This document shows positions 1-5,204 of a stretch of 64,000 nucleotides of DNA, piece after piece. Under the pieces are notes generated by a model that saw only the letters and a list, made by a program, of their open reading frames with translations, made no database searches and was not told where the DNA came from. This stretch comes from Promethearchaeota archaeon (GTDB lineage: Archaea; Asgardarchaeota; Lokiarchaeia; Sigyniarchaeales; SOKP01). The stretch's first letter is position 1. Every line of letters starts with the position of its first letter. The translations under genes and the position numbers were made by a program. The stretch is taken from the NCBI GenBank assembly GCA_030603385.1, contig JAUVXW010000003.1, positions 124,637-188,636 of the forward strand, written 5' to 3'.

Positions 1-248
1 ATTTGATATACTTTGAAAAACTATAAAAATTAATGATGAAAATAAAAATCCAATGACGAAAAGTGATAGACTTATTATAGAATATGCATTATATTTTTCT
101 ATTTTTGTTAACAATGTCGTTCCTCCATTTTTTTGTTATATATGTTTTTTCTTTTGATATATAAATATTAAATAATGAATAATTAATAAAATGTTAGGAT
201 AACTAATTATTTTTCTAATTTTAATTAAAAAATTTTTTTTAAATATTA

Positions 249-1553
249 TTAAGCATCTGTATTTTCAATTATCATTGCAGTTCCTTGTCCACCGCCACAA
301 CACATTGTAGCGAGACCATATTTCGCGTTTTTCTCTTTTAAAATTCTTGCCAATGTACCAACTATTCTGGGGCCTGTTGCTGCTATTGGGTGCCCTATTG
401 AAATGGCACCACCTTTAATATTAATATCGTCAATTTTATCATCTAACCCAACTTCATGAACCCAATTAAGTCCTACACTACCAAACGCCTCATTAATTTC
501 CCAAAAGTCGATATCATCTATAGTTAAGCCCGCATGCTTTAACGCCATCCAAGTTGCAGGAACAGGACCTCTTCCCATAACTGTGGGATCCACCGCACCA
601 TATCCATTCGAAACAATACGAGCTAATGGATCAAGATCATGTTTTTTCATTGCATCTTCTGACATTAATAACAAGGTAGCAGCTCCTGCATTAATTGGGC
701 ATGAATTTCCCGCAGTTACTAGGCCCAGTTCTGTCCCAAACTCTTTAACATATTCATCTTTACTCATGAGTGGTCTATAGTATCCACCATCCCAACCAGG
801 TTTACTTAGAGCTCTTAAATCCTTTGTTCCTTCATAGGTGGCATTTTTCCTGACAGAAAGATCATGCTCAATTAACATAGGAGTATCCTCATCACCTTCA
901 GCATGAGCCATTACAGGGGCAATTTCTCCCTTGAAAAACCCTTCTTCTTGACCTTTAGCAGCTAATTGATGACTGCGAACTGAAAATCTATCATAGTCTT
1001 CTTTAGTGAAAATACCAGCATTCATTTCTGAGAGTTTTTGAGCTGTTTGTAGCATTGAGTACGAGCAACGGAAATCAACGACATCATCAACAAAAAGCTC
1101 ATGTCCTACCCTCATAGCAGGGGGTGTTTCTCTTACCGTTGGACGTTTTGATCGTGACATAGTAGCATTATTTTTCCCAGTCGCTATCACTACATCAGAA
1201 TACCCCATTGCAATATTATTATATCCTATGGAAGCGCAGGTCATTCCTGAACCACATTGCCTATCTAATGCGATAGACGATATTTTTGCTGGAAATTTCG
1301 CTAAAAACAGGGAATATCTTCCTCCAAAGGCTATATTTTCATAATTAAAATGAGTAGCTCCTACATAAAACTCATCTACATCTTCAGGTTTTACTTTATC
1401 TTTTAGACGGTTGTCAAACATATCTATTAATGTTAGAGCAGTCAATTCATCAGGACGTAAGGTTCCAAACGCATCTCTTGCTGGTTCTCTTGGTCGAGAT
1501 CTTGAAAAAGGAGTTCTTACATAATCAGTAATATATACATCTCTTATTTTCAT
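249..1553 (-). CDS. Acetyl-CoA C-acyltransferase (thiolase)
   Basis: RTPF N-terminus; DRQCGSG (nucleophile Cys), EINEAF, GHPIAATG and MCCGGGQG catalytic motifs all intact. Confidence 0.92.
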   Translation of the reverse strand: MKIRDVYITDYVRTPFSRSRPREPARDAFGTLRPDELTALTLIDMFDNRLKDKVKPEDVDEFYVGATHFNYENIAFGGRYSLFLAKFPAKISSIALDRQCGSGMTCASIGYNNIAMGYSDVVIATGKNNATMSRSKRPTVRETPPAMRVGHELFVDDVVDFRCSYSMLQTAQKLSEMNAGIFTKEDYDRFSVRSHQLAAKGQEEGFFKGEIAPVMAHAEGDEDTPMLIEHDLSVRKNATYEGTKDLRALSKPGWDGGYYRPLMSKDEYVKEFGTELGLVTAGNSCPINAGAATLLLMSEDAMKKHDLDPLARIVSNGYGAVDPTVMGRGPVPATWMALKHAGLTIDDIDFWEINEAFGSVGLNWVHEVGLDDKIDDINIKGGAISIGHPIAATGPRIVGTLARILKEKNAKYGLATMCCGGGQGTAMIIENTDA

Positions 1554-1593
1554 ATTTTTTAAACCTCTTTTTATTTTTTACCTCATATTATAC

Positions 1594-2928
1594 TCACATA
1601 TCTATATTCTCAATTACTACAGCTGTTCCCTGACCCCCCGCACATGACATAGCAGCAAGACCATATTTTGCACTCTTCTCTTTAAGAATTCTAGCTAATG
1701 TTGTCGTGATTCTCAGACCCGTAGCGGATGCTGGATTTCCTATCGCTATTGCTCCTCCATGAATATTCATTTTATTTTCCCAATCAATACCTAATTTATT
1801 AGCAGCATTAAGTGCTACAACACTAAAGGATTCATTAATTTCCCAAAAATCAATATCTCCCACTTTTAAACCTGCATGCTCTAAAGCCATTTTGGATGCC
1901 GGTACTACACCTCGTCCCCATACAGTTGGATCTACCCCCGCAAAACCAATTGATATAACCTTCGCCATGGGTTTCAAGTTGTATTCTTCAAGTGCATTTT
2001 TAGATGCTAATAAGCAAAGTGAAGCTCCATTACTTATTGGAGAACTATTTCCTGTTGTAATAATACCCTTCTCTGTTCCAAATTTTGCAATATATGCCTC
2101 TTTAGAAAGTACAGGATTATTATAGCCACCTGCCCATCCTGGAGTGCCTATGGAAGGCATATTTGCAATATTTTCCAAAGTAATCGCCTTTTTGATAGAT
2201 TGATCTATTTCAACCTCAATTTGGGTATCAGGTTCACCTTCTTTATGCCCTTTAAGAGACATAATTTCTTCTTTGAAATATCCATTTTCCAAAGCCTTCG
2301 CTGCTAAATTATGGCTACGTGTACTTAATTTATCCATTTCATCCTTTGTGAGAAGCTCTGCTTCTTCCTCAGCAAGTTTTTGAGCTGCTTGAAACAATAA
2401 CCGACTCGTTTTCCAATCATATAAATCATCATTATACCATTTGCTATCTGGATCAAGCATAAGTTTATCTGGCGGCATCCCATATACTGTTACTTTTCCA
2501 TCGTAACTATGCATTGGTACTCGAGTAAATTGATCAAAACCTAAGGATACCACCACATCGGAATAACCCATTGAAATATTGCCAAAACCAACATGTAAAG
2601 TTGTCATGCCGGAACCGTCTTGTTTGTCAAATATCGTTGCAGGCACATGAAAGGGAAATTTTGCCATAAATATAGGAATCCTTCCCCCAAATGTCCCATG
2701 CTCATGTTGTAATAAAGTACTGCCAATCAAAACCTCAGAAACATTCTCACGTTTGAGTGTGCTTCCCTTGTTTGGTATACGTTTGTCAAACATATCTATC
2801 AAAACATGAGCTGCAAATTCTAATCCCTGCTTATTACTAAAAACATCATCAGCAGGATCCAGAGGATTTGCTTGAGAAAATGGTGTCCTTACATGGTCTA
2901 CTAAATATACTTCTCTTGCTTCCTTCAT
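1594..2928 (-). CDS. Thiolase-family protein with degenerate active site
   Basis: Full-length paralog of 249..1553, but has DKQDGSG (Cys->Asp), GNPASATG (His->Asn), MSCAGGQG (Cys->Ser) and NESF. Confidence 0.88.
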   Translation of the reverse strand: MKEAREVYLVDHVRTPFSQANPLDPADDVFSNKQGLEFAAHVLIDMFDKRIPNKGSTLKRENVSEVLIGSTLLQHEHGTFGGRIPIFMAKFPFHVPATIFDKQDGSGMTTLHVGFGNISMGYSDVVVSLGFDQFTRVPMHSYDGKVTVYGMPPDKLMLDPDSKWYNDDLYDWKTSRLLFQAAQKLAEEEAELLTKDEMDKLSTRSHNLAAKALENGYFKEEIMSLKGHKEGEPDTQIEVEIDQSIKKAITLENIANMPSIGTPGWAGGYNNPVLSKEAYIAKFGTEKGIITTGNSSPISNGASLCLLASKNALEEYNLKPMAKVISIGFAGVDPTVWGRGVVPASKMALEHAGLKVGDIDFWEINESFSVVALNAANKLGIDWENKMNIHGGAIAIGNPASATGLRITTTLARILKEKSAKYGLAAMSCAGGQGTAVVIENIDM

Positions 2929-3061: not shown

Positions 3062-3844
3062 TTACCTTCCCTTAAAGATGGGTTTACGTTTTTCTACAAA
3101 AGAGGTAGCAGCTTCCTTATGGTCTTCAGAAGCATAACATTTGGCATTAAATTCTCCTTCAATCTTTAGCATTTCATCAAAAACCTTATCATAACCTCTA
3201 TGTATCGCTTCCTTCGAAAGGGCCAAAGCAAGTGGTGCTTGTTCTGCTAGATGATTAGCAAACTCCAACGTTTTAGGTAATAACTCTTCATGAGGAAATA
3301 CTGCATTAACCAACCCAATCTTATAAGCTTCATCAGCAAATATACGTTTACCACTAAATATAAGCTCTTTTGCTTTATGAACACCAATAAATTTAGGTAG
3401 TAAAAAACTACCATTCATATCTGGAATTAATCCCATGCGAATGAAGAATTCTCCAAAACTAGCTTTCTCTGATGCGTAAATAATGTCGCAACTTAATGTT
3501 AAATTGGTTCCAAACCCAACTGCTACACCATTTACCGCAGCAATAATTGGCTTGTATAATCGAAAAAAATCATAAGGGTGAATAGTTACAGCACCACCTG
3601 AAGTTTCTTCCCTAAATTTCCCGCTAGCAAACTCTTGAACATCTGCTCCTGCACAAAATGCTTTCCCTGCTCCCGTTATGACAATTACTCTCACGTCAGA
3701 ATCTTCTTTAGCAGCCTTTAGTGAATTTTTCAAATCTGCATTCATTTGTACATTGATAGCATTCATTCTCTCAGGACGATTAAGTGTAATAACCGCCACC
3801 ATACCTTTTTTCTCGTATAGAATAGTTTCATATTCTGGACTCAT
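3062..3844 (-). CDS. Enoyl-CoA hydratase/isomerase (crotonase family, PaaG-like)
   Basis: LNRPERMNA, AFCAGAD, KPIIAAVNG, FVEKRKP; lacks both canonical Glu and has GLIPD Asp. The ATG at 3844 follows a GAAGGTG RBS (the ORF track extends to 3862). Confidence 0.88.
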   Translation of the reverse strand: MSPEYETILYEKKGMVAVITLNRPERMNAINVQMNADLKNSLKAAKEDSDVRVIVITGAGKAFCAGADVQEFASGKFREETSGGAVTIHPYDFFRLYKPIIAAVNGVAVGFGTNLTLSCDIIYASEKASFGEFFIRMGLIPDMNGSFLLPKFIGVHKAKELIFSGKRIFADEAYKIGLVNAVFPHEELLPKTLEFANHLAEQAPLALALSKEAIHRGYDKVFDEMLKIEGEFNAKCYASEDHKEAATSFVEKRKPIFKGR

Positions 3845-4073
3845 AAACAATAACACCTTCAAATAAAAACTATTAAAATTCTGTAATTTGTTAGTTTTTA
3901 GTTTGTATTAAATAAAATTGATTCTTGTACTATTTAATTTTTTTACTTTTTACATTTAGAAGAAACAGCACTAAAATTATCAAGATAAAAAATAAAACTT
4001 TATTATCATACCAATTTAAATAAAATATTGAATGAATATTAACCTAAAAAAAAGTATTATTTGATGATAAAAA

Positions 4074-5204
4074 ATGAGTAGTAAAGCTGAATATGAAAAA
4101 GCTCTTAAAACTTTATTTAAAGCAGGAGGATTTCAATTCCCATTTTCAGAAACTATACATGAAATTCTAAAAATAACTATCAAAGATGAAAATCTAGATT
4201 TCATAATAGCTTTTGAAAACCAGACCTCTCAAACAATGGAGCAATTAAAAGAGAGTAGTGGATTATCTGAAGAAGAAATTCTAGAAAAAGCAGACGCTTT
4301 AGCAAAAATGGGGGTAATAATCAACCAACCTAATCGTAGTGGGGTAATGGTATATCAATTATTCCCTTTTCATAGGCAATTTGAATATATTTTTATGCAA
4401 AACCTTGAAAAAACGGAAGAGAATTATAAGATAGCACGGTTATTCGGTAAATTGAATGAAGAACATAGCGATATTGTCCAATCTCAATATGACGGATATA
4501 GTGCTGCATTGAATCGTATGCCCGCAATGGATCGTACGGTTCCGATATTGGAGGATTTGGAAACAGGTGAAGAAATTAATGTTATTGTAAATGAAGAAAT
4601 AGAAGTGCCAAAAGAAAAAATATTACCGACTCAACAAATTAGAGAACTTATTGAAAAATATGATGATATCGCTGTAGGTAATTGCTACTGTCGTCAACAT
4701 CAAGAATTTCTAGGTAATCCCTGCAAACAAATCGAACTTACACCAAGTTGTATGACCTTAGGTAAATCTGCAAGGCATACTTCTAATCATGGTTTCTCTA
4801 AATTGGTGTCTAAGGAAGAAGCTTTGAAAATTCTTAAAAAATGTGAAGATGCAGGATTAGTCCATAAAGCCTATCATAAATACGGTAATTCATCAGCAGA
4901 GGAAGTCGCAATCTGTAATTGCTGTAACTGTTGTTGCATGACTGCCCGAGATTGCTTAATTTTTCCTGTAGTCAATGAGACAAATTATTTAGCTAGCATC
5001 GATGAAGATTTATGCACAGGATGTGGTACCTGCGTAGATTTATGCTATAATAAAGCGATTGAATTAAATGATGACAATAAAGCGGAAAGAATAGAAGAAT
5101 TCTGTGCAGGATGTGGTGTGTGTGCTTATCATTGCCCTGAAAATGCAATTTCTCTTATCGAAGGACCGAGAATGGTAAGAATGCTCCCTCCACGTAAAAA
5201 TTAA
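4074..5204 (+). CDS. Uncharacterised 4Fe-4S dicluster protein (HTH-like N-terminus, CxCR / ICNCC domain)
   Basis: CYCRQH, GLVH, ICNCCNCCC and two CxxCxxCxxxC ferredoxin motifs; paralog of 28819..29937. Confidence 0.85.
   Translation: MSSKAEYEKALKTLFKAGGFQFPFSETIHEILKITIKDENLDFIIAFENQTSQTMEQLKESSGLSEEEILEKADALAKMGVIINQPNRSGVMVYQLFPFHRQFEYIFMQNLEKTEENYKIARLFGKLNEEHSDIVQSQYDGYSAALNRMPAMDRTVPILEDLETGEEINVIVNEEIEVPKEKILPTQQIRELIEKYDDIAVGNCYCRQHQEFLGNPCKQIELTPSCMTLGKSARHTSNHGFSKLVSKEEALKILKKCEDAGLVHKAYHKYGNSSAEEVAICNCCNCCCMTARDCLIFPVVNETNYLASIDEDLCTGCGTCVDLCYNKAIELNDDNKAERIEEFCAGCGVCAYHCPENAISLIEGPRMVRMLPPRKN

What the first reader, a model, noticed from the sequence alone, without database searches (positions are those of the whole stretch)
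249..2928. Intact pseudo-thiolase with three catalytic residues replaced, in tandem with an active sister thiolase
Seen: 1594..2928 is full length and retains the thiolase motif framework, yet three catalytic residues are swapped. The nucleophile Cys is Asp (DKQDGSG, codon 2617-2619), the GHP His is Asn (codon 1735-1737), and the CxGGG Cys is Ser (codon 1645-1647). The next gene, 40 nt downstream, has all three residues. Both genes share a distinctive insertion (PGWDGGYYRPLMSKDEY / PGWAGGYNNPVLSKEAY). Known: thiolase catalysis needs Cys/His/Cys, and thiolase folds have been repurposed before (the Ltp2 aldolase, the Cys-less trypanosomatid SLP). Inference: targeted active-site changes without decay elsewhere suggest either a heteromeric thiolase with a scaffold/regulatory subunit or new chemistry. 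The active sister also lacks the usual GxExM Glu (TGKNNATMS), which is compatible with co-evolved subunits.
Basis: partly seen in the sequence, partly recalled or inferred. Interest (0 to 1): 0.78.

Follow-up and report, generated by a model that had tools for sequence, protein, structure and literature searches.

The report
Dead thiolase partnered with live sister
Some Asgard archaea keep a full-length thiolase copy that has lost its catalytic machinery, always encoded just upstream of its intact sister gene, so the two probably form a two-subunit thiolase with one working site, which I found in no paper on true thiolases.

Summary
Gene A (1594..2928, minus strand, 444 aa) is an intact thiolase-fold protein with Asp104, Asn398 and Ser428 in place of Cys, His and Cys. 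Gene B (249..1553, 434 aa), 40 nt downstream, has all catalytic residues and is 48% identical.

- **More than three residues are changed.** All five thiolase fingerprint motifs are altered in A.
- **One ancient duplication.** A and B are sister clades (support 100/99).
- **Strict pairing.** Every locus with DNA downstream of A carries B right behind it (25 distinct full pairs). In 301 Asgard species genomes, B orthologues occur only beside A.
- **A is under selection.** dN/dS is about 0.13 for A and 0.10 for B.
- **No new shared chemistry.** Deep A lineages carry different residues at the dead sites (Asp, Trp, Ala or Ser; Asn, Glu or Leu).
- **Where A is relaxed.** A varies 1.5 times more than B outside the predicted dimer interface but equally within it.

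Best reading (confidence about 0.7): A is a non-catalytic subunit of an A-B heterodimeric thiolase, comparable to KS-CLF or PqsBC. Binding is modelled, not shown.

The "distinctive insertion" is shared by other Asgard thiolases, not private to the pair. This scan reached the same reading on other genomes. I found no paper describing this arrangement for true thiolases.

The parts
1594..2928 (-). Gene A: full-length thiolase-fold protein of 444 aa that is catalytically dead (the proposed non-catalytic subunit)
   Evidence: ORF; Thiolase_N and Thiolase_C; dead-site residues; dN/dS about 0.13
2617..2619 (-). Codon for Asp104 at the nucleophile Cys position (CXS fingerprint reads DGS)
   Evidence: Asp in 29 of 34 A-clade proteins; Trp, Ala or Ser in deep lineages
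1918..1920 (-). Codon for Trp337 at the Met position of the VMG fingerprint (Arg in most orthologues)
   Evidence: The A clade has R17, M7, Q4, I3 and W2 here
1828..1830 (-). Codon for Ser367 (NEAF reads NESF)
1735..1737 (-). Codon for Asn398 at the GHP His position
   Evidence: Asn in 32 of 34; Glu or Leu in the deepest lineages
1645..1647 (-). Codon for Ser428 at the CXG Cys position; the next residue, Cys429, is retained
   Evidence: The A clade has S29, P2, A2 and T1 here
1554..1593 (-). 40-nt A-B spacer with an AAAGAGG ribosome-binding-like motif and no oligo-T run
   Evidence: Spacer length is 37-46 nt in nearly all loci
249..1553 (-). Gene B: active-looking sister thiolase of 434 aa (C100, N354, H388, C418)
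   Evidence: All five fingerprints are intact in all 29 partners
1152..1178 (-). B-clade-specific motif GKNNATMSR with a 2-residue insert, replacing the family's GFEHMTR
   Evidence: N128 and N129 in 16 of 16
3062..3862 (-). Context: upstream crotonase-fold gene that lacks both canonical catalytic Glu residues; an oligo-T run follows its stop codon
   Evidence: Present upstream of A in most but not all loci

Best explanation
Gene A encodes a pseudo-thiolase. It arose by one duplication of an active Asgard thiolase and then lost catalysis and probably CoA binding. It has been kept as the obligate partner of its sister, gene B.

The two are most likely co-transcribed and assemble into the canonical tight thiolase dimer as an A-B heterodimer, or a tetramer built from such dimers. 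That assembly would have one working active site, in B. In the model, A's interface strand and the loops beside it pack against B's CxG loop and against the loop that precedes B's VMG motif. A would therefore serve to complete and hold B's active site, as the second subunit does in every homodimeric thiolase.

Shown here: loss of all catalytic fingerprints, sister relationship, strict adjacency and co-occurrence, purifying selection, and relaxation confined to non-interface regions.

Inferred: physical heterodimerisation, and any benefit of it such as altered specificity, regulation or stability.
For: 1. **Sister clades.** A and B are each monophyletic and are sisters: 100/99, 100/100 and 100/99 under LG+C20. 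All 66 outgroup thiolases are Cys/Asn/His/Cys, so inactivation is derived.
2. **Pairing in loci.** In every fetched locus with DNA downstream of A, B follows on the same strand, usually after 37-46 nt. There are 28 full pairs plus partial ones at contig ends, and 25 distinct pairs including the window's own.
3. **Co-occurrence.** In 301 Asgard species genomes, A occurs in 5. B orthologues (80% identity or more) occur only beside A, and the next-best hit is 51%.
4. **Purifying selection.** The median Nei-Gojobori dN/dS is 0.13 for A and 0.10 for B. Amino-acid divergence of A is 1.29 times that of B, with r = 0.89.
5. **Variable dead sites.** The nucleophile position is D, W, A or S. The His position is N, E or L. 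The CXG Cys position is S, P, A or T. The VMG Met position is R, M, Q, I or W. All 29 B partners keep every fingerprint.
6. **Where A is relaxed.** A's per-site entropy is 1.50 times B's outside the predicted interface and 0.98 times inside it (permutation p = 0.007). The largest relaxation is at A residues 214-273 (the CoA-shaping loops), 294-313, 334-353 and 394-413.
7. **Complex model.** The score was 0.97 in three runs against a best control of 0.00. That mark was reached by 58 of 80 solved complexes and by 2 of 110 mismatched pairs. Partner pLDDT was 94-95 and contacts agreed in at least 96% of cases. Thiolase homodimers are solved, so this pass may come from memory. It shows that A still fits the thiolase dimer, not that this pair binds.
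8. **Transcription signals.** There is no oligo-T run in the A-B spacer, while oligo-T runs follow the upstream gene and follow B.
Against: - No experiment or RNA data is available.
- The complex model cannot separate A-B from A-A plus B-B dimers, and only one such job was allowed.
- Fixed clade-specific substitutions are not significantly enriched at the predicted interface (odds ratio 1.8, p = 0.11).
- The two interface faces show no charge complementarity.
- Within the core clade, Asp/Asn/Ser is fully conserved. That would also fit a specific role for these residues.
- The interface residue set comes from a model, not from a structure.
Confidence: 0.7

Rival explanations
1. Gene A is an enzyme with new chemistry in the remodelled pocket, for example a retro-aldolase, hydrolase or decarboxylase that uses Asp104, Asn398 and Ser428. 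It would work beside B in the same pathway rather than as its subunit.
For: Asp, Asn and Ser are invariant in the core clade, which spans 68-98% identity. Thiolase folds have been repurposed before, as in the Ltp2 and Sal aldolases (PMC12329534).
Against: - Deep A lineages still paired with B have Trp, Ala or Ser at the nucleophile position, Glu or Leu at the His position, and Asp for the NEAF Asn.
- The segments that shape CoA binding are the most relaxed parts of A.
- The Arg220 equivalent is lost.
- No DUF35 partner was found among the neighbouring ORFs that I tested.
Confidence: 0.12
2. Gene A is a regulatory or ligand-sensing pseudoenzyme. It would bind B, or CoA esters, and tune B's activity in the way the trypanosomatid prozymes do, rather than acting as a passive structural half.
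For: The evidence is the same as for the main explanation: pairing, selection and a conserved interface. Dead paralogues that activate their partners are known (PMC5201418 and PMC3663545, listed).
Against: Nothing here separates this from a purely structural role. The relaxed CoA loops argue against A sensing CoA esters.
Confidence: 0.12
3. Gene A is a decaying pseudogene or a strain-specific accident, and its position next to B is only a remnant of a recent tandem duplication.
For: The pair is patchily distributed. It was found in 5 of 301 Asgard species genomes, and in 4 of 23 species of its own genus.
Against: - A is a full-length open frame wherever the contig covers it. Orthologues go down to 56% identity.
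- dN/dS is about 0.13.
- The duplication predates the divergence of all A and B lineages.
Confidence: 0.02

Closest known systems
Ketosynthase / chain-length-factor heterodimers. Examples are type II polyketide KS-alpha/KS-beta, ApeO-ApeC (PMC8358021) and the anammox FabF2-FabFmut pair (bioRxiv 10.64898/2026.05.19.726425).
   Same: Two adjacent paralogous genes of the thiolase superfamily. One subunit has lost the catalytic residues. The pair forms a pseudo-symmetric dimer with one active site.
   Different: Those are ACP-dependent decarboxylating condensing enzymes of the ketoacyl-synthase family. A and B are CoA-dependent true thiolases (Thiolase_N and Thiolase_C). CLF subunits shape a product tunnel; no such role is shown here. 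Binding between A and B is only modelled.
PqsB-PqsC of Pseudomonas aeruginosa (a FabH-like heterodimer, PMC4807248)
   Same: The inactive subunit (PqsB) lacks all catalytic-triad residues and mimics the second half of a homodimer. The active site lies in the partner, next to the interface.
   Different: PqsB is truncated and strongly diverged from PqsC. A is full length and 48% identical to B. PqsBC belongs to another branch of the superfamily (KAS III), has different chemistry, and comes from bacteria rather than archaea.
Thiolase-like proteins without catalytic residues: M. smegmatis TLP1 (PMC3406046) and the Ltp2 and Sal steroid aldolases with DUF35 partners (PMC12329534)
   Same: They have a thiolase fold with the five fingerprints not conserved, and no thiolase activity (TLP1).
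   Different: TLP1 is monomeric and has an extra C-terminal beta-barrel. Ltp2 and Sal are SCP2-thiolase relatives that need a DUF35 partner and use Tyr/Tyr or Tyr/Cys. A has none of these features. It sits inside the true-thiolase family as the sister of an active enzyme.
Prozyme-type dead paralogues (trypanosomatid AdoMetDC and deoxyhypusine synthase; PMC5201418, PMC3663545)
   Same: A catalytically dead paralogue is retained as an obligate partner of the active enzyme.
   Different: Those have unrelated folds and come from eukaryotes. Activation is demonstrated there and is untested here.

Membership tests
True thiolases (Pfam Thiolase_N PF00108 + Thiolase_C PF02803; TIGR01930) | Both thiolase domains present over the full length | tested here: met
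   A scores 79.8 and 124.2 bits, B scores 111.2 and 142.9 bits, all above the cut-offs. TIGR01930 gives 276.9 bits (A) and 318.6 bits (B) against a cut-off of 240.55.
True thiolases (Pfam Thiolase_N PF00108 + Thiolase_C PF02803; TIGR01930) | Five catalytic fingerprints CXS, VMG, NEAF, GHP and CXG (defined in PMC3406046) | tested here: not met
   Not met in A, which reads DGS, VWG, NESF, GNP and SCA. Met in B, which reads CGS, VMG, NEAF, GHP and CCG. A is a member by descent and fold, not by catalytic equipment.
True thiolases (Pfam Thiolase_N PF00108 + Thiolase_C PF02803; TIGR01930) | Tight dimer through the N-beta-3 strand and neighbouring elements | tested here: inconclusive
   The complex model places B93-98 against A98-102, with a score of 0.97 against a best control of 0.00. 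It may reflect memory of solved homodimers.
KS-CLF-type heterodimers of the thiolase superfamily | Adjacent paralogous genes, one of which lacks the catalytic Cys | tested here: met
KS-CLF-type heterodimers of the thiolase superfamily | Physical heterodimer that is required for activity | not testable with these tools
   Only a model is available. It needs co-purification and enzyme assays.
KS-CLF-type heterodimers of the thiolase superfamily | Ketoacyl-synthase family with ACP-dependent decarboxylative condensation | tested here: not met
   The Pfam and NCBIfam matches are to thiolase and acetyl-CoA C-acyltransferase models only. The pair works like KS-CLF but is not a member.
Ltp2 / Sal thiolase-fold aldolases | A DUF35 (Zn-ribbon/OB) partner encoded or fused nearby | tested here: not met
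   None of the neighbouring ORFs that I scanned has a DUF35 match. The conserved neighbours are listed.
Ltp2 / Sal thiolase-fold aldolases | Catalytic Tyr/Tyr or Tyr/Cys pair in an SCP2-thiolase-like clade | not tested
   No structure-based alignment to Ltp2 or Sal was made. A's closest relatives are true thiolases.
TLP1-type thiolase-like proteins | Monomer with an extra C-terminal beta-barrel domain | tested here: not met
   A is 444 aa and aligns end to end with 434-aa B and with thiolases of about 400 aa. It has no extra domain.

The most novel reading that the evidence does not exclude
The dead subunit is more than a structural half. Its remodelled, partly plugged pocket and the loops it lends to B's active site would give the heterodimer a substrate range or a regulation that no homodimeric thiolase has, in the way a chain-length factor does. 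The pair would then serve an undescribed anaerobic acyl-CoA pathway of Asgard archaea. That pathway would also use the neighbouring Glu-less crotonase, the cytoplasmic molybdopterin oxidoreductase and the BaiCD-like flavoenzyme.
Probability: 0.2. Interest if true: 0.75.

Novelty: new variant of a known kind. Interest (0 to 1): 0.55.

Why it matters
Heterodimers of an active and a dead subunit are established for condensing enzymes of the thiolase superfamily, such as KS-CLF, PqsBC and the anammox FabF pair. Four full-text searches found none for CoA-dependent thiolases proper, which are treated as homodimers or homotetramers.

If the pair binds, it shows the same evolutionary route in a degradative or biosynthetic thiolase: duplication, loss of one active site, then retention of the dead copy as partner. 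A and B are still 48% identical, so the pair is a tractable case for asking why a one-site dimer is kept.

There is also a practical point. Source records label these proteins 'acetyl-CoA C-acyltransferase'. Metabolic reconstructions of Lokiarchaeia-type genomes therefore count one thiolase too many.

Tried and rejected
- **Contig look-ups.** Synteny was taken from the search for related loci and the genome search instead.
- **RNA evidence.** Two metatranscriptome runs held small shares of the stretch's words (0.17 and 0.13).
- **Structure of A alone.** AlphaFold2 with the shallow 20-row alignment gave a poor model (mean pLDDT 59) and was not used.
- **Cross-interface salt bridge.** I considered a lost salt bridge between the GxExM Glu and the N-terminal Arg residues: A lost the Arg residues and B lost the Glu. 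I dropped it because neither position is in the predicted interface.
- **Fixed substitutions at the interface.** Clade-specific substitutions are not significantly enriched there.
- **Charge complementarity.** The interface faces show none: net charge is -1.5 for A, -0.4 for B and -1.7 for the outgroup.
- **Co-varying contacts.** A search between the two pair types (L067, L051) and the core clade gave only anecdotal cases, such as A100/B96.
- **Intermediates.** A profile search of 1.84 billion representatives looked for deeper A-like lineages. The A clade collapses into one representative (877 bits) and the next hit scores 420 bits. No intermediate with partly intact sites was found.
- **Literature.** Four searches for a heteromeric or pseudo-subunit thiolase found nothing relevant.
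Full report
**Observation**

The window's first 2.9 kb carries two co-oriented minus-strand ORFs. Gene A is at 1594..2928 (444 aa) and gene B at 249..1553 (434 aa), 40 nt apart. Both match Thiolase_N and Thiolase_C over their full length, and both pass the acetyl-CoA C-acyltransferase subfamily model TIGR01930. They are 48% identical.

Aligned with 120 database relatives, A has Asp104, Asn398 and Ser428 at the Cys, His and Cys positions and keeps Asn365. B and every non-A relative have Cys/Asn/His/Cys. The one exception is P0083, a chimeric-looking protein.

The damage goes further than reported. Using the five thiolase fingerprints listed in PMC3406046, A reads DGS, VWG, NESF, GNP and SCA. 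The equivalents of Met157 and Arg220 (numbering from the alignment to 4n45) are Leu178 and Lys246. Of 108 columns that are at least 95% conserved in 66 other Asgard thiolases, A keeps 81 and B keeps 92.

**What is not special**

The PGWxGGY...SKExY insertion also occurs in other Asgard thiolases.

B's missing GxExM Glu is real and clade-wide: GKNNATMSR with a 2-residue insert, in 16 of 16 proteins. It does not lie in the predicted interface.

**Origin**

The window is G000:C6:124637-188636. Record titles of related MAGs name Promethearchaeota (Loki-type), Hodarchaeota, Thorarchaeota and others.

A quick tree and a careful LG+C20 PMSF tree agree. A is monophyletic (100/99), B is monophyletic (100/100), and A+B form one clade (100/99) nested among active Asgard thiolases. 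This means one duplication followed by loss of catalysis in A.

The basal splits of the two clades mirror each other. P0035 and P0036 are basal in A, and P0042 and P0045 are basal in B. Each pair shares a longest-contig length, which suggests but does not prove that they lie on the same contigs. The locus L051 (A 56%, B 63% identical to the window's genes) shows such a deep pair directly.

**Pairing**

Scans of metagenome and genome contigs, plus whole-genome searches, gave 36 loci that carry an A orthologue. Some of these are duplicates of each other.

Wherever DNA exists downstream of A, a B orthologue follows on the same strand. The gap is 37-46 nt in most loci and 13 nt in one. Two apparent overlaps come from my choice of the longest ORF for B. 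There are 28 full pairs, partial B genes at four contig ends, and 25 distinct pairs including the window's own.

In 301 Asgard species genomes, A was found in five. Four are among the 23 species of the window's genus, counting the window's own genome, and one is in another family, where the contig ends inside A. One genome has two pairs.

Searching the same set with B found orthologues of 80-88% identity only beside A. The next-best hits were 51% or lower. The pair therefore travels as a unit and is an accessory, patchily distributed trait.

**Selection**

Nei-Gojobori estimates on locus pairs with dS below 1.5 give a median dN/dS of 0.13 for A and 0.10 for B. Amino-acid divergence of A is 1.29 times that of B across the same locus pairs, with r = 0.89. 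A is not a pseudogene.

**Scaffold versus new chemistry**

All 29 B partners keep every fingerprint. In A the dead sites vary between lineages that all remain paired:

| Position | Residues seen in the A clade |
|---|---|
| Nucleophile Cys | Asp, Trp, Ala, Ser |
| GHP His | Asn, Glu, Leu |
| CXG Cys | Ser, Pro, Ala, Thr |
| VMG Met | Arg, Met, Gln, Ile, Trp |
| NEAF Asn | Asn, or Asp in deep lineages |

A function shared by the whole A clade therefore does not depend on these residues. Most core members combine Asp104 with Arg337. I suggest, as an inference only, that this pair plugs the former acyl pocket.

**Where constraint sits**

A complex model of B with A scored 0.97 in three runs, against a best control of 0.00. 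That mark was reached by 58 of 80 solved complexes and by 2 of 110 mismatched pairs. Partner pLDDT was 94-95 and contacts agreed in at least 96% of cases.

The model shows the canonical thiolase dimer. Strand B93-98 pairs with A98-102. B's CxG loop (419-424) and residues 316-323 touch A93-96. Thiolase homodimers are solved, so this pass shows that A still fits the dimer. It does not show that the pair binds, and it cannot separate A-B from A-A plus B-B.

Using the model's interface list, A's per-site entropy in 25 distinct pairs is 1.50 times B's outside the interface and 0.98 times inside it (permutation p = 0.007). The largest relaxation lies at A residues 214-273, which align with the cationic and adenine loop region that shapes CoA binding. 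Further relaxed stretches are 294-313, 334-353 and 394-413.

Among all database members, A's interface columns are more conserved than the rest of the protein. The opposite holds for B and for the outgroup.

Tests that did not support interface co-evolution are given under Tried and rejected.

**Transcription**

The spacer has an AAAGAGG motif before B's ATG and no oligo-T run. Oligo-T runs follow the upstream gene's stop codon and B's stop codon. This fits an A-B bicistronic unit, as an inference from sequence. RNA evidence could not be obtained.

**Context**

The conserved neighbourhood, in order, is:

- one to three MaoC-type hydratases;
- a divergent 376-aa Fe-S protein;
- a crotonase-fold gene;
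- A and B;
- a convergent Fer4 subunit and a 749-aa DMSO-reductase-family enzyme;
- a BaiCD/FadH-like flavoenzyme;
- an AMP-ligase-like gene.

The crotonase lacks both canonical Glu residues (GFGTN and GEFF), as does its best PDB match 2ej5. This state is invariant in 22 loci. The substrate of the pair is unknown.

B keeps the Met157 and Met288 equivalents. PMC3406046 links these two residues to short-chain specificity in Zoogloea thiolase. The whole Asgard family keeps them too, so this says little about the pair specifically.

**Comparison with known systems and novelty**

The arrangement works like KS-CLF, ApeO-ApeC, the anammox FabF pair and PqsBC. It is not a member of those families, because A and B are CoA thiolases by every profile.

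It differs from TLP1, which is a monomer with an extra domain. It also differs from Ltp2 and Sal, which need a DUF35 partner and belong to another clade.

Four literature searches found no heteromeric thiolase with a dead subunit.

A profile search of 1.84 billion representatives found no deeper A-like lineage and no intermediate.

Earlier notes of this scan describe the same pair in other genomes with the same reading. Those notes are not independent evidence. The tests reported here were run afresh.

**Verdict**

My confidence in the main explanation is about 0.7. I class this as a new variant of a known kind. The decisive evidence is still missing: co-purification of A with B, and activity of B with and without A.

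Noticed in passing
window 3062..3862 (-): The crotonase-fold gene upstream of A lacks both canonical enoyl-CoA hydratase Glu residues. It reads GFGTN for GGGCE and GEFF for GQPE, like PDB 2ej5. This state is invariant in 22 related loci at about 90% identity. It is probably not a plain hydratase.
   Followed up: partly
L036:9383-12213 (G000:C6, just upstream of the window start); also L067:2540-6858 and L050:1-395: A cytoplasmic-looking DMSO-reductase-family molybdopterin enzyme (749 aa, no signal region aligned) and its 4Fe-4S subunit lie convergent to B in most loci. The second, Trp-type A-B pair also sits next to a diverged enzyme of this family. The link between a thiolase pair and a Mo/W enzyme is unexplained.
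   Followed up: partly
window 1..114, continuing upstream (L036:12341-12751, -): A 136-aa hydrophobic ORF with a GGAGGA ribosome-binding site lies between B and the Fer4 gene in this genome only. In other loci that gap is about 50-100 nt. It has no Pfam match.
   Followed up: partly
L007/L066 and L067 (genome G276 = CAYSZJ01 contigs): One genome carries two A-B pairs: a core Asp-type pair and a Trp-type pair (A 63% and B 82% identical to the window's genes). This raises the question of how cross-pairing is avoided.
   Followed up: partly
window 249..2928 compared with L055, L040 and L043: Synonymous divergence is discordant within the pair. A has dS 0.37-0.39 and B has dS 0.16-0.23 against the same three loci. 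Most other comparisons show B dS equal to or above A dS. There may be a recombination breakpoint between or within the two genes.
   Followed up: no
P0083 (403 aa, on a 2.1-kb contig): This protein has an active-type N-terminal half (Cys at the nucleophile position) and an A-type C-terminal half (GNP, SCGG). It is either an assembly chimera or a natural recombinant between a normal thiolase and a dead one.
   Followed up: no
P0179 and P0269 (library representatives): Two other thiolase-family representatives lack the catalytic set. P0179 has Gly/Asp/Asn and P0269 has Asn/Asn/Ser at the Cys/His/Cys positions. Dead thiolases may have arisen independently elsewhere. Their genomic context could not be checked.
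   Followed up: no
window 4074..5204 (+): A 376-aa protein with a C-terminal 2x[4Fe-4S] domain and a Cys-rich stretch (CNCCNCCC) is divergently placed upstream of the crotonase-A-B genes. It is conserved in nearly all loci at 68-98% identity. Its N-terminal 300 residues have no family match.
   Followed up: no
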